From the UHGV virus genome UHGV-1987395: a DNA stretch of 13,355 nt. One strand, given 5' to 3'. The notes beneath the pieces were generated by a model that worked only from the letters and a program-made list of their open reading frames with translations, ran no database searches and was not told the DNA's origin. The stretch is from a virus. Shown here in pieces: positions 1-13,355 of the stretch. The number at the start of each line of letters is the position of its first letter. The stretch's first letter is position 1. Both the position numbers and the translations under genes were made by a program.

Positions 1-1
1 A

Positions 2-346
2 GATGAGCACGGTTATCCGATTCTGACAAGTGATGAGATGAACGCCAAATACAAAGGGATTCAGGCAACATTTAAGGATCGGAAGAGCATTAAACTCTCT
101 GAATTGCGAGATGCATTTTACGGGCCGGAGGTGATGGATAAAATTAAAGGCACCGTTGAGGGTAGAATCTGGAAAGAAGATGATTATTGGCATTTAACAG
201 AACAGGCCCTTAAGGTGGCTCAACATGTAGCTAAAAGAGGTAAAACAATTATCATCGATTATATTAGTCATGGCTATGATGCCCCGAAAGAAAGATTGTG
301 GAACAACTGCAAGCTTGTAAAAGGCGAATTAACCATTACAAAATAA
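2..346 (+). CDS. hypothetical protein, 5'-truncated at window edge
   Basis: Frame is open from position 2 to the TAA at 344-346; the first in-window ATG is at 38. No family recognised. Confidence 0.4.
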   Translation, partial: DEHGYPILTSDEMNAKYKGIQATFKDRKSIKLSELRDAFYGPEVMDKIKGTVEGRIWKEDDYWHLTEQALKVAQHVAKRGKTIIIDYISHGYDAPKERLWNNCKLVKGELTITK

Positions 347-386
347 ACATTCTTATTTTTTTACAGTATTCTAAAGGAAATTTAAA

Positions 387-1117: not shown

Positions 1118-1205
1118 CTTATAGCCTTCACATATGCCGCAAGTTATTGATTCTGCCGTCCGGTAAATATGCCGGATGGCTCATATAAATTTTAAGGAAT
1201 TCCAA

Positions 1206-1649
1206 ATGTCTCAAATCGCTAAATTATTATCCCAGGTTATCAAAGCTATCGACGCTGAAGATTCAAAAGTTCGCCAGGATCTTTTAGATGGCAAGTTTAC
1301 CAACACCCTGGCATTTACCCGTGACAAAGAGCACTTCTTAAAACACAGACACCACGCTTTTGCTGAATGCAAGTCCGCTAATGGTGATGTTTTCTATGTC
1401 GATTTGGTGGTTATGGCATGTAGGCTGTGGATGATTCAGGACCTTATGCGCCAACACGGTGATGATCCTCTTATCAGCATGTGGAACAGCGCCCAGGATG
1501 GCTTTGTGATTGCTGCCTTATCCAAATCAATGATTGAGGCAGAAGGGGCAAGCCTTCAGAACATGGCAGATCTCTTTGAAATAAGCGTAGGAATGATGCA
1601 GACCATGCTCCAAGCTGTCAAACCTCTCAAACTGGTTAATCTTGATTAA
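1206..1649 (+). CDS. hypothetical protein
   Basis: ORF 1176..1649 in the track; ATG at 1206 has AAGGA 8 nt upstream, whereas ATG at 1176 has no clear SD. No family recognised. Confidence 0.45.
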   Translation: MSQIAKLLSQVIKAIDAEDSKVRQDLLDGKFTNTLAFTRDKEHFLKHRHHAFAECKSANGDVFYVDLVVMACRLWMIQDLMRQHGDDPLISMWNSAQDGFVIAALSKSMIEAEGASLQNMADLFEISVGMMQTMLQAVKPLKLVNLD

Positions 1650-1703
1650 GATATTGATAAATAAGCACTCCCCATTTTTTTGGGGGTGCATCAATGAGAG
1701 GAT

Positions 1704-2093
1704 ATGCCTATGAATATTGAAGAAATGATAGTTGAATTCGAAGAGGGTGATTTCCTGGAAGAAGGGGAGTTTAAATACTCCCGTTTTAAACAGGCGTTAT
1801 TTAGCAGCGATGATAAACCCCACGTTAGTGATCTTAATGATGATGATTTATGTCGCCTGGTGTGCACCCGCTTATATGAAGATGGAAAGTATACAGGCCA
1901 AAACTTTCCAAATCTCTATTTCAAAGCACAAACATTTGAGGAAGGGCAAAGAGTGAAAAACCTGGTCGATCAAATGCTGTCAGCCGGATATTTGCATAAA
2001 GAATTATTAAATCCTAAAGCTGAAAGCAAGCGCCATTATATTTTTGTGTGGTCTGTGGGGGATAAGTGCCCACTGAAGCGTAAAGGTAAATGA
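1704..2093 (+). CDS. hypothetical acidic protein; possible tail assembly chaperone
   Basis: GAGAGGA SD upstream of ATG; acidic N-terminus; lies two genes upstream of the tape measure gene, the usual position of chaperones. Call is positional only. Confidence 0.4.
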   Translation: MPMNIEEMIVEFEEGDFLEEGEFKYSRFKQALFSSDDKPHVSDLNDDDLCRLVCTRLYEDGKYTGQNFPNLYFKAQTFEEGQRVKNLVDQMLSAGYLHKELLNPKAESKRHYIFVWSVGDKCPLKRKGK

Positions 2094-2094
2094 T

Positions 2095-2280
2095 ATGAAT
2101 ACCTACGAAAAGATTTATCAAAAATTAAAAAGTGATAACAATGCTCCCGTCATCAAGGGCGGGGCTTCTTCCTCTGGTGACCTCTCAATCGAAGAGCTTG
2201 CGGAGAAATATAATATTGATAAAGAGGCCCTGAAAAGGGCTATTTCATTATCAAAATCTTTAAGACAGGGCGAGGTGTAA
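2095..2280 (+). CDS. hypothetical small protein (61 aa)
   Basis: ATG 1 nt after the stop of the upstream ORF (TGAtATG), suggesting translational coupling; ends 3 nt before the tape measure start. Confidence 0.35.
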   Translation: MNTYEKIYQKLKSDNNAPVIKGGASSSGDLSIEELAEKYNIDKEALKRAISLSKSLRQGEV

Positions 2281-2283
2281 GAG

Positions 2284-4404
2284 ATGGCAATGAAGGAAGT
2301 AGCCAAGCTAACAAACGTTATTTACTGGGATTCTGATAAATCCTCCTGGCGAAAAGAAGTTAAACGGCTTGAGGATTATAAAAAATCCTGGAAGAAAGCT
2401 ACCGACGATATAGCTAAAGCGGATTTTAAATCGAATCAGGCTGTGCTCAGAACACAAAGAACACGCGCTAAGGTGGAAGAGCAGATTGCCAGAGCTCAGA
2501 GGAAACAACAGGAAGCACAGAAGAAACAACGTGCTCAGGCTGTCAGCCGTCTGACCGGGGGCAATAATCCGGAGCTCTCCTCTATGCGCAAGTTCTATCA
2601 GCAGCAAGCCAGAGAGGCCGCCAGACAACAAAAACTGTTAGATCGTAGTGTTGGAGATGTTCAGCACAGAAAAGCACGTGTAGGGGCCAACAGTGCACGA
2701 ATCAGCAGTATGTTTGATGGCTCCCTGGTTGCTCAGTTCCAAAGCAGAATCCAGAGAGTTAATGCTGATTATGCTAAAGGGGCTATCAACCTGCAGACCT
2801 ATAATCAGAGGATGGCCCGACTCAGATCTGAAATGAAGATGGCAACAGCTGAAGCCGGAAAATTCCAGAGCAGACTAGATAAACTGGCATCAGGTGCCAG
2901 CAAGGTGCATGACAACCTGGGCAAAATCAACTCCACGCTGGGCAAGATAGCCATTGGCCTTACTGCCGCTGGCTGGGGTGTTCAGCGTGCTGTTAGTGGT
3001 GCTATGGGTAGCCTTGCAGATCGCAACAGTGCCTACTTCGGTTTGATGGCACAGAACAAGGATGATAAAGCCAAGACTGATCAGCAGATGGCTTTTATCA
3101 AGAACACAGCCTACACCTATGGGATGGATGAGCGGGAGATGCAAGGGGGCTACATGCGCTTTGCTGCAGCTACCCCCACCATGAAGGAATCTGATAAGCA
3201 GGCTCTCTTTGAGGCTATGGCTATTAAAGGCCGCTCAGTGGGTGCTACTGGCGAGCAACAGAACAGGGCGCTTGTTGCGGTCCAACAAATGGCTTCAAAG
3301 GGAAAAGTTATGGCGGAAGAGCTGCGGGGCCAACTGTCAGAAGCCTTTGCAGGCTCACAACAGGACTTCCAACAGGCCGCTATTGATGCCGGAATCATCA
3401 AAAATACCCAGGAATTCGATAAAGCCCTTAAAGATGGCAAAATCACCCTGGACAAACTTCTTCCCTCTCTGGTGAAAATCTGGGGTGCAGCAAAAGAAAC
3501 TAAAGCTTTTGCTGAATCCATGAAACAGCCAGAAGTAGCAATGCAGCGCATGAAAAACAGCTTTAACGAGCTGGCGATTCAGTTTATGGGTGTTGTGGAT
3601 CCTGCAGATGGCGTTATTAGCTTATCTGAATCTCTAATCTCCATCTTCGAAGACCTCACCACTGATATGGACGGCAGCGGGAGCGCGGCAAAACAGTTTG
3701 GTGAGGCAGTCGGTGCTGCCATGCGGGAGATCATGTATTGGGTAGGCTTCGCTAAGGGATATATTGAGGTCAAGGCTAAAGAGTTCGGCATGACCGGATC
3801 AGAGGTTGGCGAGCTTATCGGGAAACTGGTAGTCGGCTTAGCTGGTCTGAAAGTTATTACCACACTGCTTTCCCCTCTGACCGGATTTGTTTCACTTGTC
3901 ACTCAGCTGATAGCCTTGTTAGGTAAAATCCCTGGTATGAGCAAGCTTCTGGCTTCTGCCTCAGGTGGAACGGCAACAGGAGCAGCGGTCATCAGTGCAG
4001 GATCTAACGCTGAAAGAAGCTTCATTGATGGCAAGACGCAGGAAATGAGTAAGGAGAACTCAAAACAGGGTGCTTTGTTTGAGCTGGGAAGATTTGTCAG
4101 CAATGCTGGCGCACTGTTCACACCTGGCGGCGATACTGGTCCTTTGTTCGATCAGGTCAGAGGCTGGTTTAATAAAGGGCCAACATTGACAGTAGACACT
4201 GGCATCAGACCAACACCGACGGGTGGCATGGCTATCCAGAATGGTGGATATCAACCAGTCCAAGTAAATGTAGCCCCACAAGGTGAGATTTCCGGCAAAT
4301 GGGAGATAACCATCGATGAGGGGGGAATTGCCAGGGTAATTCAGAAGGAAGTCAGCGATCAGTTGGATTGGAAAGCCACACAGGAATCTAACCAGCTTTT
4401 CTAA
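2284..4404 (+). CDS. phage tail tape measure protein
   Basis: 706 aa; N-terminal Q/R/K/A-rich predicted coiled coil; central region (NKDDKAKTDQQMAFIKNTAYTYGMDEREMQGGYMRFAAATPTMKESDKQALFEAMAIKGRSVGATGEQQNRALVAVQQMASKG...) resembles the conserved tape-measure core domain; Gly-rich hydrophobic segment near the C-terminus. Confidence 0.7.
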   Translation: MAMKEVAKLTNVIYWDSDKSSWRKEVKRLEDYKKSWKKATDDIAKADFKSNQAVLRTQRTRAKVEEQIARAQRKQQEAQKKQRAQAVSRLTGGNNPELSSMRKFYQQQAREAARQQKLLDRSVGDVQHRKARVGANSARISSMFDGSLVAQFQSRIQRVNADYAKGAINLQTYNQRMARLRSEMKMATAEAGKFQSRLDKLASGASKVHDNLGKINSTLGKIAIGLTAAGWGVQRAVSGAMGSLADRNSAYFGLMAQNKDDKAKTDQQMAFIKNTAYTYGMDEREMQGGYMRFAAATPTMKESDKQALFEAMAIKGRSVGATGEQQNRALVAVQQMASKGKVMAEELRGQLSEAFAGSQQDFQQAAIDAGIIKNTQEFDKALKDGKITLDKLLPSLVKIWGAAKETKAFAESMKQPEVAMQRMKNSFNELAIQFMGVVDPADGVISLSESLISIFEDLTTDMDGSGSAAKQFGEAVGAAMREIMYWVGFAKGYIEVKAKEFGMTGSEVGELIGKLVVGLAGLKVITTLLSPLTGFVSLVTQLIALLGKIPGMSKLLASASGGTATGAAVISAGSNAERSFIDGKTQEMSKENSKQGALFELGRFVSNAGALFTPGGDTGPLFDQVRGWFNKGPTLTVDTGIRPTPTGGMAIQNGGYQPVQVNVAPQGEISGKWEITIDEGGIARVIQKEVSDQLDWKATQESNQLF

Positions 4405-4504
4405 TGTCCACTCTGTGGATTTGAGTTCTACTCAAACCTGCATAGCAGGCACTGATATTGTGATCAAAATCAATAAGTTAGCCTGACCGGGTAAACTCCA
4501 GGCA

Positions 4505-4537
4505 AGAAAAAAGCCCCTAAGTGTTAACAAAGGGGCT
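4505..4537 (-). terminator. candidate intrinsic terminator, minus strand
   Basis: 7-bp stem AGCCCCT (4512-4518) / AGGGGCT (4531-4537) with a 12-nt loop, followed on the minus strand by TTTTTT (plus A-run 4505-4511). Confidence 0.45.
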
Positions 4538-4957
4538 CTTCTCCGGTATCCTTTTGATGCGGGGCGAACCTGCTAACAAAAATCAACCTCTCGCGAGACT
4601 AATGTTAGCAGGTTGCCGGAAGGTAAGTCAACTCCGGTCTATAAACCTTAAAGCGACTATAAAATCGCCCCGCCAATTGTGATGATCCGACCTTTGAGGC
4701 GGGTCCGGTGCCCAGGGGGGTGCAGTGATGCACAAACCAGGCAACGATAAACAGGCTAACAGTGATAGCGGCGCTCAATCAGCGCACTAAATCCTAACCA
4801 GTCCGGGAAAGAGGCTGGCTCTATCGACCGCTCATGCACGGGACAATGCATACCTGATAAAGGATTCTCACAAGGGACCAATCGCGAGAAAAGAAGAGGA
4901 AAGGGGCTGATTTGTGGTGTATCACTACGGCCTCAAAAGACCTTCTATTGTCTTTTT

Positions 4958-5416
4958 TCAACCTCTCCCCACATTTGACCAGTATTTGATTGCACCGATC
5001 AAATCATCATAGTGGCGCATTGCATCATTGAAGCCTTTATAGCTTGCCCATTGTGGGGAAACCTTGTTATTGCTGAATTGCCCACTAATCAGGATAGTCT
5101 CCAGAATGTCGGCGTATCGCTTGCCAATTCGCTTTCTGACGGCCTCAGAGCTTCCACCCTTTACGATTGCATTAATCAGGGCTTTTGTGTGTCTCAGGCT
5201 CTCATAGAGCATTGCAGCGTGGGCAGATTCCATAAAGGAGCGCTTAGGCAGATCACCCCACCCCTCAGAGTGGATAGCTGCCAGTGTGGCGTAATTCAGG
5301 CCGCTATAGTGCTTTCCGTCATCCCAGCCAACCGCTACACCTTCCATCTGTGAGAGCTCTTTATGCAGCTTATCCATCATGCGCTTGTCTATGGTGCAAC
5401 GGACTTTCGGACTCAT
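4958..5416 (-). CDS. putative virion morphogenesis / head-tail joining protein
   Basis: 152 aa; ATGA start-stop overlap with the upstream gene; segment LAAIHSEGWGDLPKRSFMESA resembles, from memory, the motif of HK97 gp10-like head-tail joining proteins. Weak. Confidence 0.35.
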   Translation of the reverse strand: MSPKVRCTIDKRMMDKLHKELSQMEGVAVGWDDGKHYSGLNYATLAAIHSEGWGDLPKRSFMESAHAAMLYESLRHTKALINAIVKGGSSEAVRKRIGKRYADILETILISGQFSNNKVSPQWASYKGFNDAMRHYDDLIGAIKYWSNVGRG

Positions 5417-6216
5417 TTGTTGATCTCCGTGATGTCATCGAGCAACATGTTGGCCTTATCAATCATCGTTTCGTGGAACTCATTCGACACAACAGACTTA
5501 TCACCTGCGGCAATCTTTCCCGCTGCCTCTCCCTGTGCATATTCCCCGCGATGCTTAGCCCTGGTAGATTTCGTAGCAGCGTTGCCAGCGTTGCTACCCT
5601 CTTTAGCACTGTTAACAGCACCCTTTTGCTGTGTTTTATTCACCTTCTTACTGTTAGTGAAAACTCCGGCATTTTCGACCATCTTCACCTTGAAGGTGCG
5701 GAATTCTTCAAAGGTGCAATCAATAGTGATGCAGTCACCAGAGGAAGAGCTACGCTTAACTTCACATTTCGTCATGATGAAGTTCTCAAGGAGTCCGGCA
5801 TCTTCACTCACCAGGCTGACCAGCTGGCGCTTGTCTCTCATTTCCATAAGTGCCTGAACAGCGGCAGCAGGGCGCATAGATTCACGGGGATTATCTGGAT
5901 CAGTGTTCCGGTCGATGTAGTTCTCTTTCCGGATGATATAAGGGGAAGAGGTAATAATACCCGTAAAGCTGACAGATTTATCTTTAATGACGGCATGGTC
6001 TGACATGGTGGTGCCATCCTCGACCGCATAGCTCGATTTCTCAACAGGGAACGAATAGCTGACATCAGAGATAGAGTCAAAGAAGATAGCCACATTATCG
6101 GTATAGTTGAAGCCATCCATTATATTTTTGTTTTGTGAATATCCCCCACACATAACAGTGAATGCAGGAGATCTCGACTCAGCTTGTTTTGCAGCTGTCA
6201 GAGCATCACTAGCCAT
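5413..6216 (-). CDS. hypothetical protein, probable virion protein by context
   Basis: ORF 5413..6225 in the track; ATG at 6216 has GGAGG 10 nt upstream, while the ATG at 6225 sits 1 nt from the SD. In the capsid operon; no family recognised. Confidence 0.45.
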   Translation of the reverse strand: MASDALTAAKQAESRSPAFTVMCGGYSQNKNIMDGFNYTDNVAIFFDSISDVSYSFPVEKSSYAVEDGTTMSDHAVIKDKSVSFTGIITSSPYIIRKENYIDRNTDPDNPRESMRPAAAVQALMEMRDKRQLVSLVSEDAGLLENFIMTKCEVKRSSSSGDCITIDCTFEEFRTFKVKMVENAGVFTNSKKVNKTQQKGAVNSAKEGSNAGNAATKSTRAKHRGEYAQGEAAGKIAAGDKSVVSNEFHETMIDKANMLLDDITEINK

Positions 6217-6321
6217 ATTAAACATGCCTCCAAAATGAATCTTTTCGTTGCCCTGCTTAAAATCTGCAGAAAATACAGGGCAGTTATTCGTTAGAATCGC
6301 TTATAGCTCTTCCCGAGAGCG

Positions 6322-6573
6322 TTATTTTGCAAAACGATTATGGGCATTCAGGGCTTTTTTGCGGTCCTGGGCTTGTTTGCGTGCAATAAAATGTTCGAAA
6401 GTCTCGGCCCAGGTGCATTTATTATATTCACGGTATTTATGCATAGCCTGGCGGCTAACGTCATAGCAGGCGGCAAATGTGGAGATACGCAGGAATTCCG
6501 GCAGATCCTCGTCATCGATATGGATAATATCAAAAGGCACGTCGTCACGGTCGCCGTATAAAACAATTTTCAT
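6322..6573 (-). CDS. hypothetical small protein (83 aa)
   Basis: ATG at 6573 with GAGGTG 6 nt upstream; the 6582 start in the track is GTG. Lies just downstream of the post-capsid terminator hairpin. Confidence 0.4.
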   Translation of the reverse strand: MKIVLYGDRDDVPFDIIHIDDEDLPEFLRISTFAACYDVSRQAMHKYREYNKCTWAETFEHFIARKQAQDRKKALNAHNRFAK

Positions 6574-6605
6574 AAAATACACCTCAAAAACTTAAGACGG
6601 GGATA

Positions 6606-6670
6606 ACAAAAAAGGGAAGAGGGAAAGACCTATCCCCGATCTCTCACCTCTTCCCTTTGCTTTTATTTGG
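6606..6670. terminator. bidirectional intrinsic terminator/attenuator between capsid gene and downstream gene
   Basis: 9-bp stem GGGAAGAGG (6614-6622) / CCTCTTCCC (6647-6655); flanked by an A-run 6608-6613 (a T-run on the minus strand) and a T-rich tract 6656-6668 on the plus strand. Confidence 0.55.
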
Positions 6671-6686
6671 CCTTCGAAGAAGGACC

Positions 6687-7730
6687 TTATTTAGCCTTGG
6701 CTTTTGCCAGAGCAGCGGCGGCGGAGTTTTTAACACTCACTTTAACCACAACTTCGGGCATCATGTTCATGAAAGCATAAGAGGATTCAACGAAGATTTC
6801 TCGTTTGCCTCTGGACTCTTCCATATACATGAAAGCTTCACGTGCAGCGCCGTTTGCAAGCTTCAGGTTGCGAGCGCAAGGGCCGAAAAATTGAGTATAA
6901 ACGCCCACCATATCGCCTAACGCATGCGGCTGGAACTGTGGGACCAGATAAGCAGTATTCTCTGGCAGACTATCCATTTGCACCACACGCAGAGCTAAGC
7001 CCGGAATGCGGAAGGTCGGGAAGCCCGGCAGAATATCCTCAGGGAACATCAGACCTTTGTCGGTAATATTCTGATTGCCGAACAACAGCACTTTACGGAG
7101 CAGTTCATCAGTCTGAATAGCGGCGAACACCTCAGCACGGCAGAACAGGGTGAAACCACGCAGAGCGCGAACGACACCACGCTGTTTAACCTTGCTCAGT
7201 GCAACCAGGTCCTGCAGTTGTTTGAGAATATCTTGAGCTAGATCCATTTCAGAGGTGGACTGTTCCACGCCCAGCAGTTCGCACACATTCAGCTCTTTAC
7301 CCTTGGTGAGGATAATTTTGTTCTCAAAGAGAGCAAGCTGGCGTGCTTCTTCGTGGGTCTGGCGTAAGCCTTCGCCCAGTTGAATAACACGACGAGCGGT
7401 TACAGACTCTAAATTCTCTTCGGAATCTTTGCCAGGAACACGAATACCCTGCCAGTCAGAAGGATAAATAGCACTTGATGCGGCAGTGAACGCCATATCA
7501 CCCGTGCCCGTTTCACGCTCATCTGCGGTAATGGTCGCCATCTGTTCACCGTAGCGCGGATACTGACCGAAAGCGGTTTGTTTCACCTGGCGAACTTTGT
7601 CATATTCAAATTTAAAGGTATTGCACAGAGCAGTAGTGTTGAAGATATCCATTGCTGAAATAATCTGGTTATCCAGCGGGATGTCTTTAATCAAGCCACA
7701 CAGATCGCGGACTTCGAATTCTTTTTTCAT
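6687..7730 (-). CDS. phage major capsid protein (E-family-like)
   Basis: 347 aa from ATG 7730 with AAGGAGG 6 nt upstream (the 7736 start in the track is TTG); size and position directly after a decoration-like gene match the usual decoration + E-family capsid pairing; Ala/Lys-rich C-terminal tail. Confidence 0.6.
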   Translation of the reverse strand: MKKEFEVRDLCGLIKDIPLDNQIISAMDIFNTTALCNTFKFEYDKVRQVKQTAFGQYPRYGEQMATITADERETGTGDMAFTAASSAIYPSDWQGIRVPGKDSEENLESVTARRVIQLGEGLRQTHEEARQLALFENKIILTKGKELNVCELLGVEQSTSEMDLAQDILKQLQDLVALSKVKQRGVVRALRGFTLFCRAEVFAAIQTDELLRKVLLFGNQNITDKGLMFPEDILPGFPTFRIPGLALRVVQMDSLPENTAYLVPQFQPHALGDMVGVYTQFFGPCARNLKLANGAAREAFMYMEESRGKREIFVESSYAFMNMMPEVVVKVSVKNSAAAALAKAKAK

Positions 7731-7741
7731 CTCCAACCTCC

Positions 7742-8077
7742 TTATTGTGCAATTCGCAAATCGCCATTGCTGGCAGCGATAACAGCGGCTAAGCCTTCTT
7801 TATCCACGTAGGCCGGATTGATGTAGCAACCTTTGTTGGCAACAACGATAAAAGCATCACCAACCTCAGCACGTTCTACAACCAGCAGCGGAGTTTTACC
7901 GGTGTGCGTTGCTTTAACGAAGGTCTCAACCTCGCCAGCCTCAGTCACCACAACAACAGTGCCAGCCGGAATCTCAGCCTTAACTTTGTTTTTAACTTCA
8001 ACGTCGCGAATACTAAATTGCTCATCTGCGGCGTATGAAATGATGTGTCCGCGTGTGCGGATAGTCATATCTCTCAT
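7742..8077 (-). CDS. putative head decoration protein (DUF2190-like)
   Basis: 111 aa; AGGTGA 4 nt upstream of ATG; Val/Gly/Ala-rich beta-type sequence; sits directly upstream of the capsid gene, with its stop overlapping the capsid SD. Confidence 0.5.
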   Translation of the reverse strand: MRDMTIRTRGHIISYAADEQFSIRDVEVKNKVKAEIPAGTVVVVTEAGEVETFVKATHTGKTPLLVVERAEVGDAFIVVANKGCYINPAYVDKEGLAAVIAASNGDLRIAQ

Positions 8078-8567
8078 TTGATCACCTGCGATTTAAATTA
8101 ACTCCCCTCAAAGAGTTCCGGTATAACCTCTCAAACCACGACAGGCTCGGGCCGAAAAGTTATGCCGGAAATCTAAAGGGAAATTGATACAAGGAGAGGG
8201 AGATAGCCCCGCACCGTAGCCAAGCGGGGGCTATTCCACATGGGGAAACCGACAACAGTCGGATGATAGTTCACAGTATGGTTACGGTTACTAGAGAGCA
8301 CTATCACGAAAGGCACTCCCCCGAATCAGTTCAGGCTGCGGTCACATCAGCGGGGAAATACCTTTCGGGATAGCTACCCACACAGAAAACCCGCAAAAGA
8401 AAACTGTGTGGATAACTAGCCCAATAGGAGAATTAATCGACCACTCAACGATGATCAGGGTAGTGTTATTTATAAGGCGGCACCGCTACCTGGTCGCCTT
8501 TACTTTGGAGGAAAATACGGCAAATCAAGATCTTCTCAAATGATATTGATTCCATACTATACTGTAT

Positions 8568-8596
8568 ATTATATCAGTATTTACTCACATTGTCAA
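8568..8596 (-). promoter_or_regulatory. consensus sigma70 promoter reading leftward toward the capsid operon
   Basis: On the minus strand: TTGACA (plus 8596-8591), 17-nt spacer, TATAAT (plus 8573-8568). Perfect match at both hexamers with optimal spacing. Confidence 0.6.
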
Positions 8597-8750
8597 CACC
8601 TTGATTATATAAATTCTAATAATTAGCGTAGTAACGGTATTTTCAGACCTCTATCAATCCCATCAATACGTCACCCCCACCCTTTAGATGCATACATCCG
8701 ACCTACTTTGTAGGCTTGGCGTACTGCCAAGGTCGCAGCTATGCGACTCC

Positions 8751-8783
8751 TATCTATCACCACTTTATAAAGCTTGATAGATA
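8751..8783. promoter_or_regulatory. dyad-symmetric operator-like site
   Basis: TATCTATCA (8751-8759) and TGATAGATA (8775-8783) are perfect inverted repeats, concentric with an inner perfect palindrome CTTTATAAAG (8763-8772); overlaps a candidate -35 TTGATA at 8774-8779. Confidence 0.4.
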
Positions 8784-8926
8784 TCTTTTGATCAATATCA
8801 ATGTTTTCCAGAGATTTACCCGGCTATAGTTCGAATCAAGGAAGGGGAGCATTGATAGAGACACCCAAAGGGGTGACTGAAAGTCACCTGGCATAGCCAG
8901 TGAAAGCACCCAACCGAACAAACAAA

Positions 8927-8944
8927 TCAACTTCTCGCAAAAGG
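8927..8944 (+). promoter_or_regulatory. conserved 5'-UTR motif, copy 1
   Basis: TCAACTTCTCGCAAAAGG ends 8 nt before ATG 8953; near-identical to the copy at 9446-9464. Confidence 0.4.
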
Positions 8945-8952
8945 TGATAGTT

Positions 8953-9075
8953 ATGGGTATCAAGAACAGTGCCAGCGCATGGCAAAAGGCCAGGTTTCAT
9001 CACCCACACATGGTCAAGGCAATTGAGGTGGTTGGAGTTTTAGCCCTGATGTTAGCTCTGTGTGTGGAGGTGTGA
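8953..9075 (+). CDS. possible small membrane peptide (40 aa)
   Basis: AAGGTGA SD; translation MGIKNSASAWQKARFHHPHMVKAIEVVGVLALMLALCVEV has a C-terminal hydrophobic helix; preceded by the conserved TCAACTTCTCGCAAA motif. Below the track cut-off. Confidence 0.25.
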   Translation: MGIKNSASAWQKARFHHPHMVKAIEVVGVLALMLALCVEV

Positions 9076-9076
9076 G

Positions 9077-9157
9077 ATGGGTAAAGGAGGCAAAGAATTT
9101 TTAATAGGTCTGGCAGTCTTAGATTTTGTATTAATCATCATTGAGCGGAGTTTATGA
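9077..9157 (+). CDS. possible small membrane peptide (26 aa)
   Basis: GGAGGTG SD 4 nt upstream; translation MGKGGKEFLIGLAVLDFVLIIIERSL; its stop overlaps the next start as ATGA. Confidence 0.2.
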   Translation: MGKGGKEFLIGLAVLDFVLIIIERSL

Positions 9158-9414
9158 CGGGAACTAAAGATATTAAGAGACTGAGGGAAGAGCTGATAGC
9201 TGAAATTAAAGCTAAGGCAAAGCAAATGGAGATAGCCGCACAAATGGATGTAGCGGAACAGATGTACAAGATGGTTGAGGAGGGAACGCCACGACAGGTT
9301 ATAGCAAAAACCTTCGGTGTGGGGATCGCCACCGTGCACAGAAGGCTGAAAGCCTATGCCGACTACCACAATATCGAGAGAAAGGAGGATGGGAGATTTA
9401 AGAAGAATAAATAG
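9154..9414 (+). CDS. small DNA-binding protein with resolvase/invertase-type HTH
   Basis: 86 aa; charged helical N-terminus; C-terminal GTPRQVIAKTFGVGIATVHRRLK resembles, from memory, the Hin/Gin C-terminal HTH (GHPRQQLAIIFGIGVSTLYRY); no recombinase catalytic domain. Confidence 0.5.
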   Translation: MTGTKDIKRLREELIAEIKAKAKQMEIAAQMDVAEQMYKMVEEGTPRQVIAKTFGVGIATVHRRLKAYADYHNIERKEDGRFKKNK

Positions 9415-9445
9415 TGTGAACAGTCCAATAGGTTATTAACTAAAT

Positions 9446-9464
9446 TCAACTTCTCGCAAAGGGG
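9446..9464 (+). promoter_or_regulatory. conserved 5'-UTR motif, copy 2
   Basis: TCAACTTCTCGCAAAGGGG ends 7 nt before ATG 9472; same motif as 8927-8944. Confidence 0.4.
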
Positions 9465-9471
9465 TACCACT

Positions 9472-10059
9472 ATGAACATTAAAACTATCATTGCAGCCAT
9501 CACCATTGCCTTTAGTGCCAACACTGCAGCTATTGATGTTAATTTATTTCAGAAGATGACTTGCGAAGATAAATTAGTTGCCATGGATAAGGGGCTAGAA
9601 GCCACGCATAATGGGGAACAGTTTCATTTCTCCTTGAAGAATCTTATCTTGCCCCTGGATTCTGCCGCACAGGTATATGCAACATTGGGTAAATTTGAGA
9701 AGCCGGAAATTGACCTGCAGGGCGTGAGAGCGAAGATCACCAAAAGAAATGAAAGCATTTGTGATATAGCGGTTACGGCCCTTATGACAGATGATGAAAA
9801 AACGATTATAGCTACATGCAAAGATAGCAACGACAACGAACGATTCTTTAAGATCACCCACAACAGGCCCGTTTCTTTCTACTCTAATGCCACAATGGGC
9901 GCGGGTATGCAGTGGCTGAAGAGAGCTAAAGTAACTGAGGTTAATGCTGATGACGATTTATCCTATGAATACGGTTTTATTTCCAATTATATGGCGTGGC
10001 ACCTGAAAAAATGCGGCATCAATGGTCAGGCATACGACAATGGATTTTGGTTTTTCTAA
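9472..10059 (+). CDS. secreted/periplasmic protein of unknown function
   Basis: N-terminal signal peptide MNIKTIIAAITIAFSANTAA with an AxA-like cleavage site; AGGGG SD; followed by an intrinsic terminator at 10081-10106; ends in aromatic FWFF. Confidence 0.55.
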   Translation: MNIKTIIAAITIAFSANTAAIDVNLFQKMTCEDKLVAMDKGLEATHNGEQFHFSLKNLILPLDSAAQVYATLGKFEKPEIDLQGVRAKITKRNESICDIAVTALMTDDEKTIIATCKDSNDNERFFKITHNRPVSFYSNATMGAGMQWLKRAKVTEVNADDDLSYEYGFISNYMAWHLKKCGINGQAYDNGFWFF

Positions 10060-10080
10060 CCTATTAAGTTAATCCCACCT

Positions 10081-10106
10081 GGGGGCCATCACGGCCCCTT
10101 TTTATT
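10081..10106 (+). terminator. intrinsic terminator after the secreted-protein gene
   Basis: GGGGCC (10082-10087), loop ATCAC, GGCCCC (10093-10098), then TTTTTATTT. Confidence 0.65.
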
Positions 10107-10108
10107 TA

Positions 10109-10164
10109 TCCCCTATTTAACCCCTATTTAATGGGTATTTAATGCCTATTTATTGATTTAATGG
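10109..10164. repeat. five tandem copies of an 11-bp unit (consensus about CCCTATTTAA)
   Basis: TCCCCTATTTAA / CCCCTATTTAA / TGGGTATTTAA / TGCCTATTTAT / TGATTTAATGG in direct succession immediately after the terminator; 11-bp period is about one helical turn. Confidence 0.55.
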
Positions 10165-11566
10165 TTTTGGGCATTGTTGACAGTGTAAGAGAGAGGATGT
10201 AACCCTTTTTTGTAATACTAATAAAATCAATAGCTTAGCTCAATTGGCCTTTTCTCTGTTTTTGTCAAATTTAACATACCCTAAAAAACTGCAAAATCTG
10301 GCTGCAAGATTATCTGCAGCTGGATTTCTTACACCTCATTTTGTGGTATCACCCTGACTAGTTTGTGCATAAAATGAACAGTTTTTAACATTTCCTCTTC
10401 ACCTGGTAACCACACAAAAAGCTAAAAACGAGGCACAGATAATCTTAGAGGCCTGTTTTCTTGTTATCACTCTAGAAACGTCGTAGAGATGATTTTAATG
10501 AAAGATGACCTACCCTATTACACCCCTATTTTTTGTTATCACAATTGCATCCTGTGCGGTGTATGGCTATGTGCTGAAAGCGGTCTTATGTGTGGGTGTC
10601 AGAAATATCCATTAGCGGTATTAATACCCGTCGGAGATTCGTCTGAGGTGCCAGGCAGGCGCTCCCCCACCTCCCTTTTTTCTTCTAACAATTCTCAAAT
10701 ATCACACCACTGCCGACCACGTTACTACTCTGTTAATTCTTAAGCTTTGCTGTATGTTGTGCACATTATTTATTCAGGTGGCTGTACGTAAATTCTGTGC
10801 CCACTGATCATGATTTTTAAATCAGATTTTGTAGTTCGCTTTATTAGTGTAGATAAGATCTATTATGTTAAATGCAATTTTCCCAACCCTTCAAATCAAT
10901 GACTTACATGTAAGTATGCACTAACACCCCACACAGCACATTAGACGTATAGATGGCTATATCCCACATTTTTGATTGTTTTGTAGTCATTCCCCTGATC
11001 ATTTAACCAGTATAGTTTGTTCTCTGTAGACCACAAAATCGGAATTTACATCTGATTAACATAATCTGTTAGCATGATCACTATTACCCACACAACAATA
11101 ACCCCATGCAAGCCTCTTTAGGCAATTTATCGGCGTGTTGGTGTGAACAGTCTTTCATGTTCTTTATGAATTCATGACTGCAAGGAATGTATTCATTGTC
11201 CTGTGTGGGGGAAGGATGGACTGCCCCAGGGGCCATAGTTATGACACCCGGTCAACATAACTGTCGATAAAATCAACGGGTGTTGGTATGCATATTTCCC
11301 ACACATGAGAGAAAATCAAAGCAAAGAGAGAGGAGAGAGGTTTGCTAGTCAAAATAGGTCAATTGACGGCTAATACAGAGTAAAAAATCAGATGCAATCA
11401 CTCCCCCACCTGTTGGGATTTCCTACAACCCCTTTCAGTCATACTCAGGCACCACACCCCGGTAAATATTACCGCACTAACCTGTAAAGAATTTTCACAC
11501 CTGTGTGTTTATACAGTCATACTCTCCTGTTTTGCAGTCATTGCACCCATGATACACAGCCCCTAA

Positions 11567-11676
11567 CCTGTCAAAATATTTTACTACTTAGCCACTATAG
11601 CTATGCATACCTGTAAAATATTTTTACTACTACCTGTCAAAATACTTTACTACTACCTGTAAAAATATTTGACACT
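11567..11676. repeat. iteron-like 22-bp direct repeats (four copies, plus a degenerate copy at 11481-11500)
   Basis: CCTGTCAAAATATTTTACTACT (11567-11588), CCTGTAAAATATTTTTACTACT (11610-11631), CCTGTCAAAATACTTTACTACT (11633-11654), CCTGTAAAAATATTTGACACT (11656-11676); the last three are spaced 23 bp start to start. Confidence 0.6.
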
Positions 11677-11789
11677 AATAGATAAAGTAATAGACCACAC
11701 AAGATCCCCCCTAACCCCCCAGGGGGAATGGGGAGGGATCAGAGAGTGGGGAAGGTTTTCTAAGGGAAAAGCTTAACCCACAAATGAAA

Positions 11790-11818
11790 GCCTAAAGAGC
11801 ATTAGCGACTCTTTAGGC
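11790..11818. repeat. perfect 10-bp inverted repeat (hairpin or operator)
   Basis: GCCTAAAGAG (11790-11799), 9-nt spacer, CTCTTTAGGC (11809-11818); the half-site CTCTTTAGGCAAT recurs at 11114-11126. Confidence 0.5.
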
Positions 11819-12258
11819 AATATGTGTGTGGGTCACTCTGTGACTTTAGCTATACAGCTAAACCGACTACGTCGGCCTGTGTGTGGGGGTGACAATGTAT
11901 TCCATACATGACACGTCACCCAATTGTGTGTGGTCCGGCGAATGCGTCAGCATGAGGCCCACATGTGGACCGCTGCCGAAAGCTTGCCAGCGCCGGAAGG
12001 AGGCAGCAAAGAGTCTCCCGCGCGGGTGCACGCACACACATACAAAGGATACACTCATAAATCGAAAATAAGCCACCTAAATGGCCTTCTGGCTGCATTA
12101 ACTAGTGTGAGTAGTGCAATTGCATTACCTGACCTCTAAATCGCGTTAGAATCGATTTTAGAGCGCTTAAGGCAAAAAGTGCCCTCCCTTGTGGGCTTGC
12201 TTGTGTCTGCTGTGCAGGCTATGGCACCTATAGCACACCTAAATGATAATAATTCTCA

Positions 12259-12277
12259 TTGACAATTGGTTGACAAT
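12259..12277. promoter_or_regulatory. tandem TTGACAAT boxes (candidate operator or overlapping -35 elements)
   Basis: TTGACAAT at 12259-12266 and 12270-12277, 11 bp apart; a third copy at 12449-12456 forms the -35 of the downstream promoter. Confidence 0.4.
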
Positions 12278-12448
12278 GTGATAAGATTATAAATAGGGGG
12301 AGAAACAGATCCGGAGGTCAATGTGGAAATTACTGATGCAATAGCGATCATCAACCTGGCTGTACTGTGGTGCGGTGTTGCCTACATAGCCGGAGTAACT
12401 GCAATCGACAATCTTGAAGAAAAAATGATAGATAAATACAAAAAGATT

Positions 12449-12477
12449 GTTGACAATTTGACGAATGTCTGATAAAA
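12449..12477 (+). promoter_or_regulatory. sigma70-like promoter upstream of the 71-aa gene
   Basis: TTGACA (12449-12454), 17-nt spacer, TAAAAT (12472-12477). Confidence 0.5.
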
Positions 12478-12605
12478 TATAAAGCATAGGGTAATTCTCA
12501 TCATAGTGAATTTCCTTTAGTAGACTGGCGGGGGCTTGTCTTAAGTTCCCGTTTCTTTTTAATCATATATCGCACAGGTTAGTGAGCTAACAGGAGGCTT
12601 ATACT

Positions 12606-12821
12606 ATGGCTAAAACCGGACCGATCAGCCAGTTGGTAAACTGGACTACTGACGAAATCGTCGAGAACGTACTTAAGGGGAACTTCCGCAAAACTTCCGT
12701 TTATGCATTCATTCGTAAACATAAAGGAGAATATCCACACATTGAAGAAGCAATTTTAAAACTAAATTGCATTCGCCTTGAGCGGGAACTGGCTAAATAC
12801 ACCAATAACATTAATAAATAA
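12606..12821 (+). CDS. hypothetical small protein (71 aa), possible DNA-binding regulator
   Basis: AGGAGG 8 nt upstream of ATG; lies about 130 nt downstream of a consensus-like promoter; no family recognised. Confidence 0.45.
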   Translation: MAKTGPISQLVNWTTDEIVENVLKGNFRKTSVYAFIRKHKGEYPHIEEAILKLNCIRLERELAKYTNNINK

Positions 12822-12835
12822 TTATGGGGGAATTA

Positions 12836-13355
12836 TGGCAAGTAATTACGGGGAAAATTTTACTCCCCTTTTTAAACGTTTCATCAAATACATTTTTAAA
12901 AATCCGATTGCAAAAACTACAACCAATAAAGAAAGATTTCACTTAAACTTGTTGGAAATGACAATTTACGGTGAGATGGCAAGTTTTAATGCTGCAGGTT
13001 GTGAAATATTTATCTCTGAACAGAGATTAGCAGACGATTATGATGTTTCAAGACCGACAGTTATTAACTCGATTAAATCTCTAGAAAATGCCGGGCTTAT
13101 TTCAATAGTTAAAAGTAAAGGCAAATCTAATCATTACAAACTGCTAATTACCCCTGATCAGCTTGGCAAGATGTGTGATGAGCAGGGTATTAAAACCTCC
13201 GACAGTGTGGGATCTAGTAAAGAGGCCCCCGATAATCAACAGGAAGCCCCAAAACAAGCCACACAGCAAGCTAAAAAGGCCGAGGTGGTGCAATTGCCTA
13301 CCCAACCTAAGAACGAGCGCAGAGAGCGCTTTAGAGACGCTGGCAAACGTGAGAA
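12836..13355 (+). CDS. winged-HTH DNA-binding protein, putative replication initiator or regulator (3'-truncated)
   Basis: Open from ATG 12836 to the window end; segment ISEQRLADDYDVSRPTVINSIKSLENAGLISIVKSKGKSNHYKLL is a classic winged-HTH; followed by a low-complexity Q/K/A/E-rich linker. Confidence 0.5.

What the first reader, a model, noticed from the sequence alone, without database searches (positions are those of the whole stretch)
10060..12600. 2.5-kb ORF-poor, repeat-dense block in an otherwise gene-dense element
Between the terminator at 10081 and the promoter at 12449 there is no convincing CDS; the only track ORFs are a Cys-rich 84-aa ORF without an SD and four mutually overlapping ORFs in a GC-rich patch. 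The block holds several separate repeat families: 11-bp tandem repeats, 22-bp iterons, a perfect 10-bp hairpin with a distant half-site copy, palindromic CCCCAGGGG-type sites at 11224-11232 and 11717-11728, and clustered TGTGTGTGG copies. Phage and plasmid genomes rarely tolerate this much noncoding DNA unless it is origin, partition, packaging-site or ncRNA sequence.
Basis: seen in the sequence. Interest (0 to 1): 0.6.

Follow-up and report, generated by a model that had tools for sequence, protein, structure and literature searches.

The report
Satellite plasmid origin with helper-like hairpins
The 2.5-kb gene-poor block is the control region of a small E. coli plasmid that looks like a parasite ("satellite") of rV5-type phages: it holds a lambda-style replication origin and next to it an array of conserved DNA/RNA hairpins, part of which is copied from the phage.

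Summary
The window is a complete 13.3-kb circular E. coli plasmid carrying phage head and tail genes related to rV5-like phages. All 21 relatives examined keep a 2.2-3.1 kb ORF-poor block. Substitution patterns show that only a 49-aa ORF (12323-12472) codes; the Cys-rich 84-aa ORF does not.

The block is composite:
- **Origin (well supported).** Four 23-bp iterons (11566-11677), an AT-rich stretch and a G/C palindrome. Iteron sequence changes in step with the winged-helix domain of the adjacent lambda-O-like initiator across 16 relatives.
- **Hairpin cassettes (real, function unknown).** At 11821-12045, units each begin with TGTGTGG. Number and order vary between relatives, and stems keep pairing through double substitutions. 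One hairpin matches an intergenic spot beside the iterons of Vequintavirus phages: 23 of 24 loop bases are identical and three stem pairs are compensated.
- **Constrained non-coding core (unexplained).** 10230-10704 has diversity about a quarter of that at fourfold sites.
- **Near-neutral segment.** 10705-11165 is replaced in two relatives; a third lacks 10541-10945.

TGTGTGG occurs 20 times in the element (1.5 expected). No Rfam family matches. Whether the hairpins act in priming, as RNA, or in packaging is undecided.

The parts
10081..10099 (+). Intrinsic terminator ending the HTH_7 / variable-gene operon; left edge of the block
   Evidence: GC-rich 7-bp stem followed by a T run. Conserved in most relatives.
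10100..10152 (.). Five phased 11-bp repeats (TATTTAA plus 4 variable bases); a further copy lies at 10513-10531. Function unknown: curved DNA or a protein-binding array.
   Evidence: period 11, 2.6-3.7 copies per row. Some relatives carry an insertion inside the array.
10230..10704 (.). Non-coding core under purifying selection. It contains an IHF-consensus site overlapping its left edge (10225-10237), an invariant 13-bp-stem inverted repeat (10294-10327), CCACACA (10410), TGTGTGG (10589), and a 24-nt element (10680-10703) matching rV5's ORF-free region at 22 of 24 bases.
   Evidence: Diversity is 0.038-0.043, against 0.154 at fourfold sites of the element's genes. No codon periodicity. Hairpin z-score -3.65. 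IHF site; 24-nt match. One relative, L026, lacks 10541-10945.
10489..10743 (+). 84-aa Cys-rich ORF; not a gene
   Evidence: Diversity by codon position is 0.065/0.062/0.071. The ORF is absent from the list for L004 and truncated by the L026 deletion. No Pfam hit.
10705..11165 (.). Replaceable, near-neutral segment
   Evidence: Diversity 0.118. Replaced by unrelated or diverged sequence in L028 and L033, and partly deleted in L026. RNA-folding z-scores near 0 on both strands.
11407..11504 (.). Three single 'orphan' iterons of other specificity types (11407-11429, 11455-11477, 11480-11504)
   Evidence: They match the cognate iterons of relatives that carry other Rep alleles, types B and C.
11566..11677 (.). 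Four cognate iterons (ACCTGTCAAAATATTTTACTACT; the last three are in tandem at 23-bp spacing)
   Evidence: Iteron type matches the Rep winged-helix allele in 16 of 16 relatives.
11675..11740 (.). AT-rich stretch (11675-11694) followed by a G/C-rich palindrome (11703-11740); proposed unwinding element and boundary of the origin
   Evidence: Sequence read; fold. The right-hand flank of the iterons (TAATAGATAAA...CCCCCTAACCCC) is present in the 16 elements where the anchor was found.
11790..11818 (-). Perfect 10-bp-stem hairpin, terminator-like on the minus strand
   Evidence: z-score -5.1. Stem kept in L008 despite a changed loop.
11821..12045 (+). Array of hairpin cassettes, each starting with YTGTGTG(TG)GG: unit B (three hairpins), unit A, then unit D1 + ATGTGGA + hairpin H-b
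   Evidence: Unit number and order differ among relatives. Unit B has 6 stem pairs with double compensatory changes, with none one-sided or broken in its two main hairpins. Folded as ssDNA, z-score -2.27.
11897..12027 (+). Segment homologous to the intergenic hairpin region of Vequintavirus phages (core 11963-12027)
   Evidence: 83-87% identity over about 65 nt to about 120 phage records, almost all Vequintavirus, at unannotated or doubtfully annotated spots. 71% identity over 139 nt to rV5. The 24-nt loop is 23/24 identical and 3 stem pairs are compensated. The covariance model finds one copy per genome.
12070..12102 (.). Conserved GCCNCCTAAATGGCCTTCTGGCTGC element, similar to GGCCCCTAAAT at the end of the rV5 array; weak terminator-like hairpin on the minus strand
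12259..12287 (+). Promoter P1 (TTGACA-17-TAAGAT with TG), carrying duplicated TTGACAAT boxes; a weak divergent minus-strand promoter overlaps it (12276-12249)
   Evidence: repeat family D6
12323..12472 (+). 49-aa ORF; a real gene for a small hydrophobic protein
   Evidence: Codon-position diversity 0.037/0.027/0.105. Annotated in 9 relatives.
12450..12553 (+). Promoter P2 (12450-12478) and a leader hairpin with a T run (12527-12553), ahead of the 71-aa gene and rep
   Evidence: hairpin z-score -2.84
12835..13355 (+). 5' part of the initiator gene rep (288 aa; continues at 1-346 across the circular junction). It lies outside the block but is its partner.
   Evidence: Pfam HTH_36 26.2 bits and HTH_11 26.7 bits. 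PHROG replication initiation and lambda-O-like families, E = 4.7e-12.

Best explanation
The block is the cis-acting control region of a plasmid-borne, satellite-like element whose head and tail genes are related to rV5-type (Vequintavirus) phages.

**Centre: a lambda-type origin (11407-11740).** The element's lambda-O-like winged-helix initiator, encoded just downstream, is proposed to bind four 23-bp iterons. This would open the adjacent AT-rich stretch, which is bounded by a G/C palindrome.

**Right of the origin: hairpin cassettes (11821-12045).** Each cassette begins with TGTGTGG. The last cassette, and in some relatives a second hairpin, is homologous to hairpins in the same relative position beside the iterons of rV5's own small initiator-like protein gp075. 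I infer that these hairpins are strand-specific origin-proximal signals: priming or helicase-loading sites exposed on the plus strand when the origin opens. Their helper-identical loop would let the phage's replication proteins act on the satellite.

**Left of the origin.** About 475 bp of constrained non-coding DNA (10230-10704) has unknown function, possibly a protein-binding site. About 460 bp (10705-11165) appears dispensable.

**Right edge.** Two promoters drive a real 49-aa gene, a 71-aa gene and rep.

**Shown:** absence of coding; iteron-initiator co-variation; conserved hairpins; homology to the phage.
**Inferred:** origin activity; the helper relationship; what the hairpins do.
For: **The element and its likely helper**
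- The window is a whole circle; rep spans the junction.
- Its Neck1-like protein is 45% identical to rV5 gp056, its Dit-like protein 49% to gp048, and its tape measure 26.5% to gp049.

**Non-coding status**
- Codon-position diversity and the periodicity scan mark only 12280-12460 as coding.

**Origin**
- Four 23-bp repeats.
- The initiator hits Pfam HTH_36 and PHROG replication-initiation, lambda-O-like and DnaD-like families.
- Five or six initiator winged-helix alleles each go with their own iteron sequence, in 16 of 16 elements.
- Identity to the relatives is lowest over the iterons/cassettes (about 11300-12200) and over rep and its upstream gene (about 12700-13355 and 1-400), among the least conserved stretches of the element, as expected for swapped modules.

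**Parallel in the phage**
- rV5 gp075 (PHROG 'replication initiation protein') is followed by 4 x 21-bp iterons, an AT-rich stretch and then the hairpins.
- gp075 is about 25% identical to the Rep N-terminal domain (pairwise E = 6e-5).

**Hairpins are under selection for pairing**
- 6 doubly compensated pairs in unit B, 3 in H-b and 2 in H-0.
- The H-b loop is 23/24 identical to the phage's, while its flanks are about 71% identical.
- G-U pairs in H-b fall on the plus strand.
- Relatives with a different initiator (L007, L030, L021) carry the full rV5-like hairpin series next to their own iterons.

**TGTGTGG motif**
- 20 copies against 1.5 expected; 14-20 copies in every relative.
- In rV5, 9 copies lie within 3 kb around the iterons.
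- In both genomes, most copies left of the iterons are on the minus strand and most copies to the right, within about 1.5 kb in the satellite, are on the plus strand.
Against: - There is no experimental evidence for origin activity in this family or in rV5. The rV5 paper could not locate the phage origin.
- rV5 has a second candidate region: 2.6 kb with no ORFs and many CTGTTYAC repeats.
- The priming role of the hairpins is only an analogy. No sequence similarity to known single-strand initiation signals was tested.
- The TGTGTGG strand bias rests on about 19 sites near the iterons and weakens further away (13 of 20 over the whole element).
- About half of the satellites carry a different H-b hairpin (A2 type) that matches no phage in the database.
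- Two terminator-like hairpins and lower folding z-scores on the minus strand fit an RNA reading at least as well.
- The function of the constrained core 10230-10704 is unexplained, and one relative lacks part of it.
Confidence: 0.55

Rival explanations
1. The hairpin array acts as RNA. One version is a plus-strand leader, as in rV5, where it would be co-transcribed with gp075. The other is a minus-strand RNA of about 450 nt running from about 12245 to the terminator at 11790. Because the 24-nt H-b loop is identical in satellite and phage while the stems vary freely, a minus-strand satellite RNA could pair loop-to-loop with the phage transcript. That would resemble the kissing complexes of plasmid antisense control, and would let the satellite sense the helper or interfere with it.
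For: - Stems are kept by compensatory changes while the loop sequence is kept.
- G-U pairs lie on the plus strand in the phage sequences.
- rV5 has no predicted promoter or terminator between gp075 and the array, so read-through transcription is likely.
- In the satellite there are two terminator-like hairpins on the minus strand (11818-11790 and 12087-12070) and a weak minus-strand promoter at 12276-12249.
- The putative minus-strand RNA folds with z = -3.77. Minus-strand windows score down to z = -7.4.
Against: - No Rfam family matches, even at E <= 10.
- No strong promoter faces the array on either strand.
- Stem variants in unit B are all Watson-Crick, with no G-U intermediates. That suits DNA hairpins, or a constraint on both strands, as well as RNA.
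- No expression data exist.
Confidence: 0.25
2. The phage-like hairpins and the scattered TGTGTGG motifs are a packaging signal. The satellite has no recognisable terminase and would copy the helper's recognition site so that the helper's terminase packages satellite concatemers.
For: - The only nucleotide-level similarities to phages are short non-coding pieces.
- No terminase or portal gene was found in the element.
- In rV5 the array lies in the same transcription unit as the large terminase gene, about 4 kb upstream of it.
- One public record is a head-to-tail trimer of 39.6 kb.
- The record starts of rV5-like genomes are scattered, as expected for permuted, headful-packaged genomes.
Against: - In both phage and satellite the array sits directly beside iterons and an initiator gene, not beside terminase genes.
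- In relatives, the hairpin H-0 accompanies one particular initiator and iteron module.
- About half of the satellites have an H-b allele with no phage match.
- The packaging site of rV5 is unknown, so no direct comparison is possible.
Confidence: 0.12
3. Much of the block, especially 10170-11350, is filler or decayed sequence with no function of its own. It would be kept because the element must reach a genome length that fits its small capsid.
For: - 10705-11165 has diversity of 0.118, close to the fourfold-site value of 0.154.
- That segment is replaced in L028 and L033, and 10541-10945 is deleted in L026.
- Folding z-scores are near 0 on both strands.
- Family members stay within 13.2-14.3 kb despite many insertions and deletions.
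Against: - 10230-10704 has diversity of 0.038-0.043, about a quarter of the fourfold-site value, so it is constrained.
- There is no trace of codon periodicity and no homology to any gene.
- The iteron region and the hairpin array clearly are not filler.
Confidence: 0.08

Closest known systems
Bacteriophage lambda ori with initiator O (lambda-type iteron origins)
   Same: - Four tandem iterons with internal dyad symmetry, then an AT-rich stretch, then a palindrome.
- The initiator has an N-terminal winged-helix domain that hits lambda-O-like PHROG families.
- The lambda ori layout is recalled from my own knowledge, not tested here.
   Different: - The iterons lie about 1.2 kb upstream of rep, not inside it.
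- No P-like helicase loader is encoded.
- Extra orphan iterons of other specificities sit upstream.
- A long hairpin array follows the palindrome.
PLE satellites of Vibrio phage ICP1 (RepA plus iteron origin that recruits the helper's replisome)
   Same: - A satellite of a virulent myovirus with its own initiator and iterons but no polymerase or helicase.
- The initiator's DNA-binding domain and the iterons exist as exchangeable matched alleles.
- The PLE biology is from my own knowledge. The rV5 paper notes that ICP1 is among the closest homologues of the rV5 DNA polymerase.
   Different: - PLEs are integrated islands; this element is a free plasmid.
- I know of no helper-homologous hairpin array described next to the PLE origin.
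- The helper relationship here is inferred, not shown.
Single-strand initiation signals of plasmids (G4-type sites such as the G-site downstream of oriR in plasmid R1)
   Same: Clusters of stable hairpins on one strand a few hundred bases from the opening site of an initiator-dependent origin, where they would be exposed as single-stranded DNA. This is an analogy from my own knowledge.
   Different: - No sequence similarity was tested or is known.
- The TGTGTGG punctuation and the cassette-like modularity are not features of described ssi signals.
- Priming activity is untested.
Antisense kissing-loop control RNAs of plasmids (RNA I/RNA II of ColE1, CopA/CopT of R1)
   Same: A hairpin whose loop sequence is conserved while its stem co-varies, placed between the origin and rep. 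Terminator-like hairpins lie on the opposite strand.
   Different: - No Rfam match and no strong promoter.
- The proposed target would be a transcript of another genome, the helper, rather than the element's own rep mRNA.
Intergenic region downstream of gp075 in Vequintavirus phages (rV5 64.7-65.3 kb)
   Same: Directly homologous. There is 83-87% identity over 65 nt, and the order is collinear: iterons, AT-rich stretch, hairpin H-0 (in L007-type relatives), TGTGTGG, hairpins, ATGTGGA + H-b, GGCCCCTAAAT.
   Different: - The phage region is undescribed in the rV5 paper read here.
- The satellite has more cassettes, and they vary.
- Its iterons and initiator differ in sequence from the phage's.

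Membership tests
Iteron-type (lambda-O-like) replication origin | Three or more tandem direct repeats of about 17-23 bp at regular spacing | tested here: met
   Four 23-bp copies at 11566-11677; the last three are spaced at exactly 23 bp.
Iteron-type (lambda-O-like) replication origin | An adjacent gene for an initiator of a known Rep/O family | tested here: met
   rep is join(12835..13355, 1..346). Pfam HTH_36 scores 26.2 bits (cut-off 25). PHROG replication initiation / O-like / DnaD-like families, E = 4.7e-12.
Iteron-type (lambda-O-like) replication origin | Iteron sequence specific to the initiator allele | tested here: met
   In 16 of 16 relatives, iteron type matches the Rep winged-helix allele. 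The L007, L030 and L021 group has a different Rep, and L007 carries its own 33-bp repeats.
Iteron-type (lambda-O-like) replication origin | AT-rich unwinding element next to the iterons | tested here: inconclusive
   11675-11694 (CTAATAGATAAAGTAATAGA) is AT-rich and conserved but only about 20 bp long. No 13-mer repeats were seen.
Iteron-type (lambda-O-like) replication origin | Initiator binding and origin firing | not testable with these tools
   Needs EMSA or ChIP, a mini-replicon test, or origin mapping.
Described RNA families (Rfam 15) | A covariance-model match at or near the gathering score | tested here: not met
   Whole window at E <= 1 and block at E <= 10: only chance-level hits, best 20.6 bits against a gathering score of 58.7.
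Structured RNA or single-strand hairpin element in general | Base pairs maintained by compensatory substitutions | tested here: met
   Unit B has 6 pairs, H-b 3 pairs and H-0 2 pairs with changes on both sides. There are few independent sequences (4-6 per alignment), so this is qualitative.
Plasmid partition site (parS/centromere) | A repeat array together with ParA/ParB-type genes | tested here: not met
   The 11-bp repeats exist, but no Par family was found in the 18 predicted proteins scanned against Pfam.
Phage packaging site (pac/cos) copied from the helper | Identity to the helper's terminase recognition site | not testable with these tools
   The rV5 packaging site is unknown. The shared sequence lies about 4 kb upstream of the large terminase gene and beside iterons.
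Protein-coding or decayed gene | Three-base periodicity of substitutions, or homology to a protein | tested here: not met
   Only 12280-12460 shows periodicity. The 84-aa ORF scores 0.065/0.062/0.071. There are no DNA homologues outside the family.
CRISPR array | Repeats of 23-50 nt, unique spacers and cas genes | tested here: not met
   The punctuating motif is only 7-10 nt. The units are hairpin cassettes shared between relatives, and there are no cas genes.
Phage satellite (the element as a whole) | Dependence on a helper phage for packaging and transfer | not testable with these tools
   Circumstantial only. The element has head and tail genes but no terminase, portal, sheath or tube genes. 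It shows protein and DNA similarity to Vequintavirus.

The most novel reading that the evidence does not exclude
The TGTGTGG-punctuated hairpin cassettes are a previously undescribed kind of cis-element or RNA through which a plasmid satellite couples itself to a virulent Vequintavirus. The helper-identical 24-nt loop of hairpin H-b would be the recognition determinant. It could be read by a phage replication or packaging protein. Or, if the satellite transcribes the opposite strand, it could pair with the phage's own origin-proximal transcript as a kissing loop. The swapping of cassettes and of initiator and iteron modules between near-identical plasmids would then record an arms race with helpers or with competing satellites.
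Probability: 0.3. Interest if true: 0.8.

Novelty: new variant of a known kind. Interest (0 to 1): 0.6.

Why it matters
**A possible new satellite family.**
- rV5-type phages are widely isolated and are proposed for therapy and biocontrol of pathogenic E. coli.
- In the library searched, I found no description of a satellite of these phages.
- If this family is such a satellite, the block studied here is where it replicates and where it most visibly copies its helper.

**A testable handle.** The shared hairpin gives a specific, mutable target for asking how a plasmid senses or exploits a virulent phage. It also points to the still unmapped replication origin of rV5 itself.

**Evolution of replication modules.** The matched initiator and iteron alleles, and the orphan iterons, offer a compact natural system for studying how replication specificity modules are exchanged.

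**If the element is just a cryptic plasmid.** The result is still a clean example of a lambda-type origin with an unusual hairpin array.

Tried and rejected
**Searches that found nothing**
- Megablast of the block against phages: no match. The more sensitive blastn was needed to find the 65-nt phage match.
- Rfam on the whole window and on the block: nothing.
- Exact-pattern scan of IMG/VR with the H-b loop: one rV5-like contig, plus a chance hit inside a coding region of an unrelated contig.
- Capsid-protein searches for distant relatives. The family is confined to E. coli, with at least 81% identity. No relatives were found in IMG/VR or in the GTDB representative genomes, so no deep comparison for covariation was possible.
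- Sensitive blastn of 10100-11400 against plasmids: only the same family.
- The A2-type cassette set against phages: no match.
- Literature searches for a published description of this family, or of transcripts or an origin in Vequintavirus: nothing found.

**Ideas tested and dropped**
- The 84-aa ORF as a gene: no codon periodicity.
- A long structured RNA over 10100-11500: z-scores near 0.
- DnaA boxes: 2 found against 1.6 expected.
- T4-type or rV5-type late-promoter motifs: not enriched.
- CTGTTYAC repeats like those in rV5's ORF-free region: 4 copies in the window, only one of them in the block.
- Long-range pairing between CCACACA and TGTGTGG copies. A 13-nt pair (11821-11833 with 12030-12042) exists in the window, but the 3' partner is replaced by TGTGTGG-type sequence in several relatives.
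- A boxA/nut-like reading of CTCTTTAGGCAAT: the second copy is not conserved in relatives.
- CsrA-type sponge: the hairpin loops of cassette units A, B and D1/D2 lack GGA.
- T7-type primase sites (GGGTC/TGGTC) following TGTGTGG: 4 of 20 against about 1.6 expected, too few to conclude.


Full report
**What the window is.** The 13,355-bp window is a complete circular replicon. An initiator-like gene runs off the 3' end and continues at position 1, giving 288 aa as join(12835..13355, 1..346). Seven complete E. coli plasmid records of 13.2-13.7 kb (one of them 39.6 kb) match it end to end at 92-96% identity.

It carries a major capsid protein, a tape measure protein, a Dit-like protein, a Neck1/tail-completion protein and several small proteins of unknown function. 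No terminase, portal, sheath, tube or integrase was found. Against phage rV5:
- the Neck1-like protein is 45% identical to gp056;
- the Dit-like protein is 49% identical to gp048;
- the tape measure protein is 26.5% identical to gp049.

The capsid protein family is confined to E. coli, on contigs of about 13-14 kb, with at least 81% identity. No relatives were found in IMG/VR or in the GTDB representative genomes. I read the element as a plasmid-borne, satellite-like element linked to Vequintavirus phages. That link is inferred, not shown. I found no paper describing it. A 2025 review says only one plasmid has been shown to be a phage satellite.

**Checking the observation.**
- the terminator at 10081-10099 and the promoter at 12450-12478;
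- the 11-bp repeats at 10100-10152;
- the iterons at 11566-11677, with a period of 23 bp rather than 22;
- the perfect 10-bp-stem hairpin at 11790-11818, with a 13-nt half copy at 11114-11126;
- CCCCAGGGG at 11224 and 11717;
- the TGTGTGG copies.

The longest ORF in the block is 84 aa. PGAP annotates only a 49-aa ORF here in nine relatives.

I collected 21 family members and aligned 19 whole genomes. In the element's genes, nucleotide diversity is concentrated at third codon positions. For the capsid gene the values are 0.044/0.023/0.146. The 84-aa ORF shows no such pattern (0.065/0.062/0.071). The 49-aa ORF does (0.037/0.027/0.105). A sliding periodicity scan of the block flags only 12280-12460.

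So the block is non-coding apart from one small real gene. The element is not otherwise gene-dense: gaps at 4405-4957 and 8078-9153 are also ORF-poor, bringing non-coding DNA to about 31%.

**The origin.** The initiator has an N-terminal winged-helix domain (Pfam HTH_36 26.2 bits, HTH_11 26.7 bits). It hits PHROG families named replication initiation protein, lambda-O-like and DnaD-like loader (best E = 4.7e-12).

Among relatives, two parts of the element are especially poorly conserved, though not the only ones: the initiator gene with its upstream gene, and 11300-12200. Sorting 16 elements by the recognition region of the initiator gives five or six alleles, each with its own iteron sequence:
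- ACCTGTCAAAATATTTTACTACT;
- ACCTGTTGGAATTTCCCACAGGT;
- CCCCGGTAAATATTTCCGGTGT;
- the GAAGATTTCTC-core type;
- a unique type in L008.

Of the three relatives with an unrelated initiator, L007 carries three 33-bp repeats of its own. This one-to-one match is the usual signature of a cognate initiator-iteron pair.

The four iterons are followed by an AT-rich stretch of about 20 bp and a 38-nt G/C palindrome. As I recall the lambda origin, this is the same order of parts. Upstream lie three single iterons of other specificity types (11407-11504). They may be relics of module exchange or may titrate foreign initiators.

**The hairpin cassettes and the phage connection.** From 11821 to about 12045 the sequence is a series of units. 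Each begins with YTGTGTG(TG)GG and is followed by one to three short hairpins. Closely related plasmids differ in which units they carry and in their order.

- In unit B, two hairpins keep pairing through six doubly substituted base pairs, with no one-sided or broken pairs.
- The last unit ends in ATGTGGA plus a longer hairpin, H-b.
- Sensitive blastn shows that 11963-12027 is 83-87% identical to an unannotated or doubtfully annotated intergenic spot in about 120 phage records, almost all Vequintavirus. Similarity extends over 139 nt at 71%.
- Between satellite and phages, three of the six basal stem pairs of H-b changed on both sides, while the 24-nt loop is 23/24 identical.
- A covariance model finds exactly one copy per genome. 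It weakly detects the alternative A2-type hairpin at the homologous place. The A2 type has no phage match.

In rV5 the homologous spot lies in a 640-bp gap after gp075, a 116-aa winged-helix protein in a PHROG family named replication initiation protein. gp075 is about 25% identical to the N-terminal domain of the satellite initiator. The gap contains four 21-bp iterons, an AT-rich stretch, a long hairpin H-0, and then TGTGTGG-punctuated hairpins ending in H-b.

Relatives L007, L030 and L021 carry H-0 as well, with two compensated pairs, and in L007 it lies next to the plasmid's own 33-bp iterons. The satellite's origin region is therefore built on the same plan as the phage's, and shares part of it by descent or capture. 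The rV5 paper did not locate the phage origin.

**The TGTGTGG motif.**
- It is the most over-represented 7-mer in the element: 20 copies against about 1.4-1.5 expected, z = 13.5.
- Every relative has 14-20 copies, many at conserved positions.
- rV5 has 50 copies in 138 kb. Nine lie within 3 kb around the gp075 iterons, and six within its 2.6-kb ORF-free region.
- In both genomes most copies left of the iterons are on the minus strand, and most copies to the right (within about 1.5 kb in the satellite) are on the plus strand. That is 16 of 19 sites near the iterons, but only 13 of 20 over the whole satellite.
- I could not assign the motif to any known protein or process.

**The left half of the block.**
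- Fourfold-degenerate sites of the element's genes have a diversity of 0.154.
- 10230-10704 has 0.038-0.043, so it is constrained although non-coding.
- 10705-11165 has 0.118, close to neutral.
- The latter segment is replaced in L028 and L033, and 10541-10945 is deleted in L026.
- RNA-folding z-scores over 10100-11500 are near zero on both strands. The exception is an invariant 13-bp-stem inverted repeat at 10294-10327.
- The constrained core also contains an IHF-consensus site overlapping its left edge and a 24-nt element matching rV5's ORF-free region at 22/24.
- Its function is unknown. A protein-binding role is my guess.

**The right edge.** Two similar promoters (12259-12287 and 12450-12478) carry duplicated TTGACAAT boxes. 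They frame the 49-aa gene and a leader hairpin with a T run, ahead of the 71-aa gene and rep.

**How it most likely works, and the rivals.** The origin assignment is well supported by comparative evidence. I put the composite reading at about 0.55: a lambda-type origin, plus helper-derived, strand-specific hairpin signals near the origin, plus one constrained and one dispensable non-coding stretch.

The priming or loading role of the hairpins is an analogy to single-strand initiation signals and to PLE-ICP1 biology. It is the weakest step.

- **RNA reading (0.25).** It fits the conserved loop with freely varying stems, the plus-strand G-U pairs in the phage sequences, and the terminator-like hairpins on the minus strand with strong minus-strand folding. 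One version is attractive: a satellite antisense RNA whose loop pairs with the phage transcript.
- **Packaging-site mimic (0.12).** It fits the lack of a terminase gene and the trimer record, but not the tight association with iterons.
- **Pure filler (0.08).** It fits only 10705-11165.

**Limits.**
- The family is young, at about 95% identity, so the covariation rests on a few distinct alleles.
- No expression or replication data exist.
- The helper relationship, the strand and the molecule type are all inferred.

Noticed in passing
window 1-13355 (whole element): The window is a complete 13.3-kb circular E. coli plasmid. It has capsid, tape measure, Dit-like and Neck1-like genes, but no terminase, portal, sheath or tube. 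The tail proteins are 26-49% identical to those of phage rV5. It looks like an undescribed plasmid-borne satellite of Vequintavirus phages.
   Followed up: partly
window 8078-9153: A second ORF-poor gap (diversity 0.053). Window 8855-8905 is 90% identical over 51 nt to rV5 105688-105738, inside the phage's own 2.6-kb ORF-free region, and forms three small hairpins. The gap also holds a perfect consensus sigma-70 promoter (8596-8568, minus strand) facing the capsid operon. At 8378-8411 there is a CCACACAG...CTGTGTGG palindrome overlapping a perfect DnaA box (8407-8415).
   Followed up: partly
window 4405-4957: A third ORF-poor but conserved gap (diversity 0.054) between the convergent tape measure and Neck1 genes. 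It includes a weak ctRNA-like, terminator-like hairpin at 4502-4542 and an IHF-consensus site at 4468.
   Followed up: no
window, 20 sites (e.g. 2045, 6146, 7696, 8378, 9061, 10410, 11299, 11825): TGTGTGG/CCACACA is the most over-represented 7-mer in the element (20 copies against about 1.5 expected) and is conserved in all relatives (14-20 copies each). In rV5 it clusters around the gp075 iterons and in the 2.6-kb ORF-free region. No known binding protein or process could be assigned.
   Followed up: partly
window 1140, 1647, 4468, 8594, 10225, 10894: The IHF consensus WATCAANNNNTTR occurs 6 times against 0.95 expected (0 of 200 shuffles reached 6). All six lie at or between gene ends or in the ORF-poor gaps.
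   Followed up: no
window 9472-10059: The 195-aa gene just left of the block is a swap hotspot. Relatives carry unrelated genes of 173, 195, 233, 236 or 239 aa at this position. None of those scanned has a Pfam hit. It may be accessory cargo.
   Followed up: no
L009 (NZ_CP043822.1, 39.6 kb) and L021 (NTNY01000053.1, 30.1 kb): One public record is a head-to-tail trimer of the element; one copy carries broken genes, so it could be a concatemer or an assembly artefact. Another relative has acquired aminoglycoside phosphotransferase genes and other transposon-borne genes.
   Followed up: no
L036 4013-6618 (rV5 104013-106618): Phage rV5 itself has a 2.6-kb ORF-free region between convergent transcription units. 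It contains CCACACA copies, G-rich palindromes and about eleven CTGTT(T/C)AC repeats. It is a second candidate for the phage origin or packaging site, and resembles the satellite's non-coding DNA in style.
   Followed up: partly
window 12835-13355 + 1-346 and relatives: The initiator is modular. N-terminal winged-helix alleles, a Q/A/K/E-rich linker and at least two unrelated C-terminal domain alleles are combined in different ways among plasmids that are otherwise about 95% identical.
   Followed up: partly
window 12287-12487: The real 49-aa gene encodes a hydrophobic helix with a charged tail. It is fully overlapped by a 66-aa antisense ORF and flanked by promoters on both strands. A toxin-antitoxin-like or copy-control role is possible but untested.
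   Followed up: no
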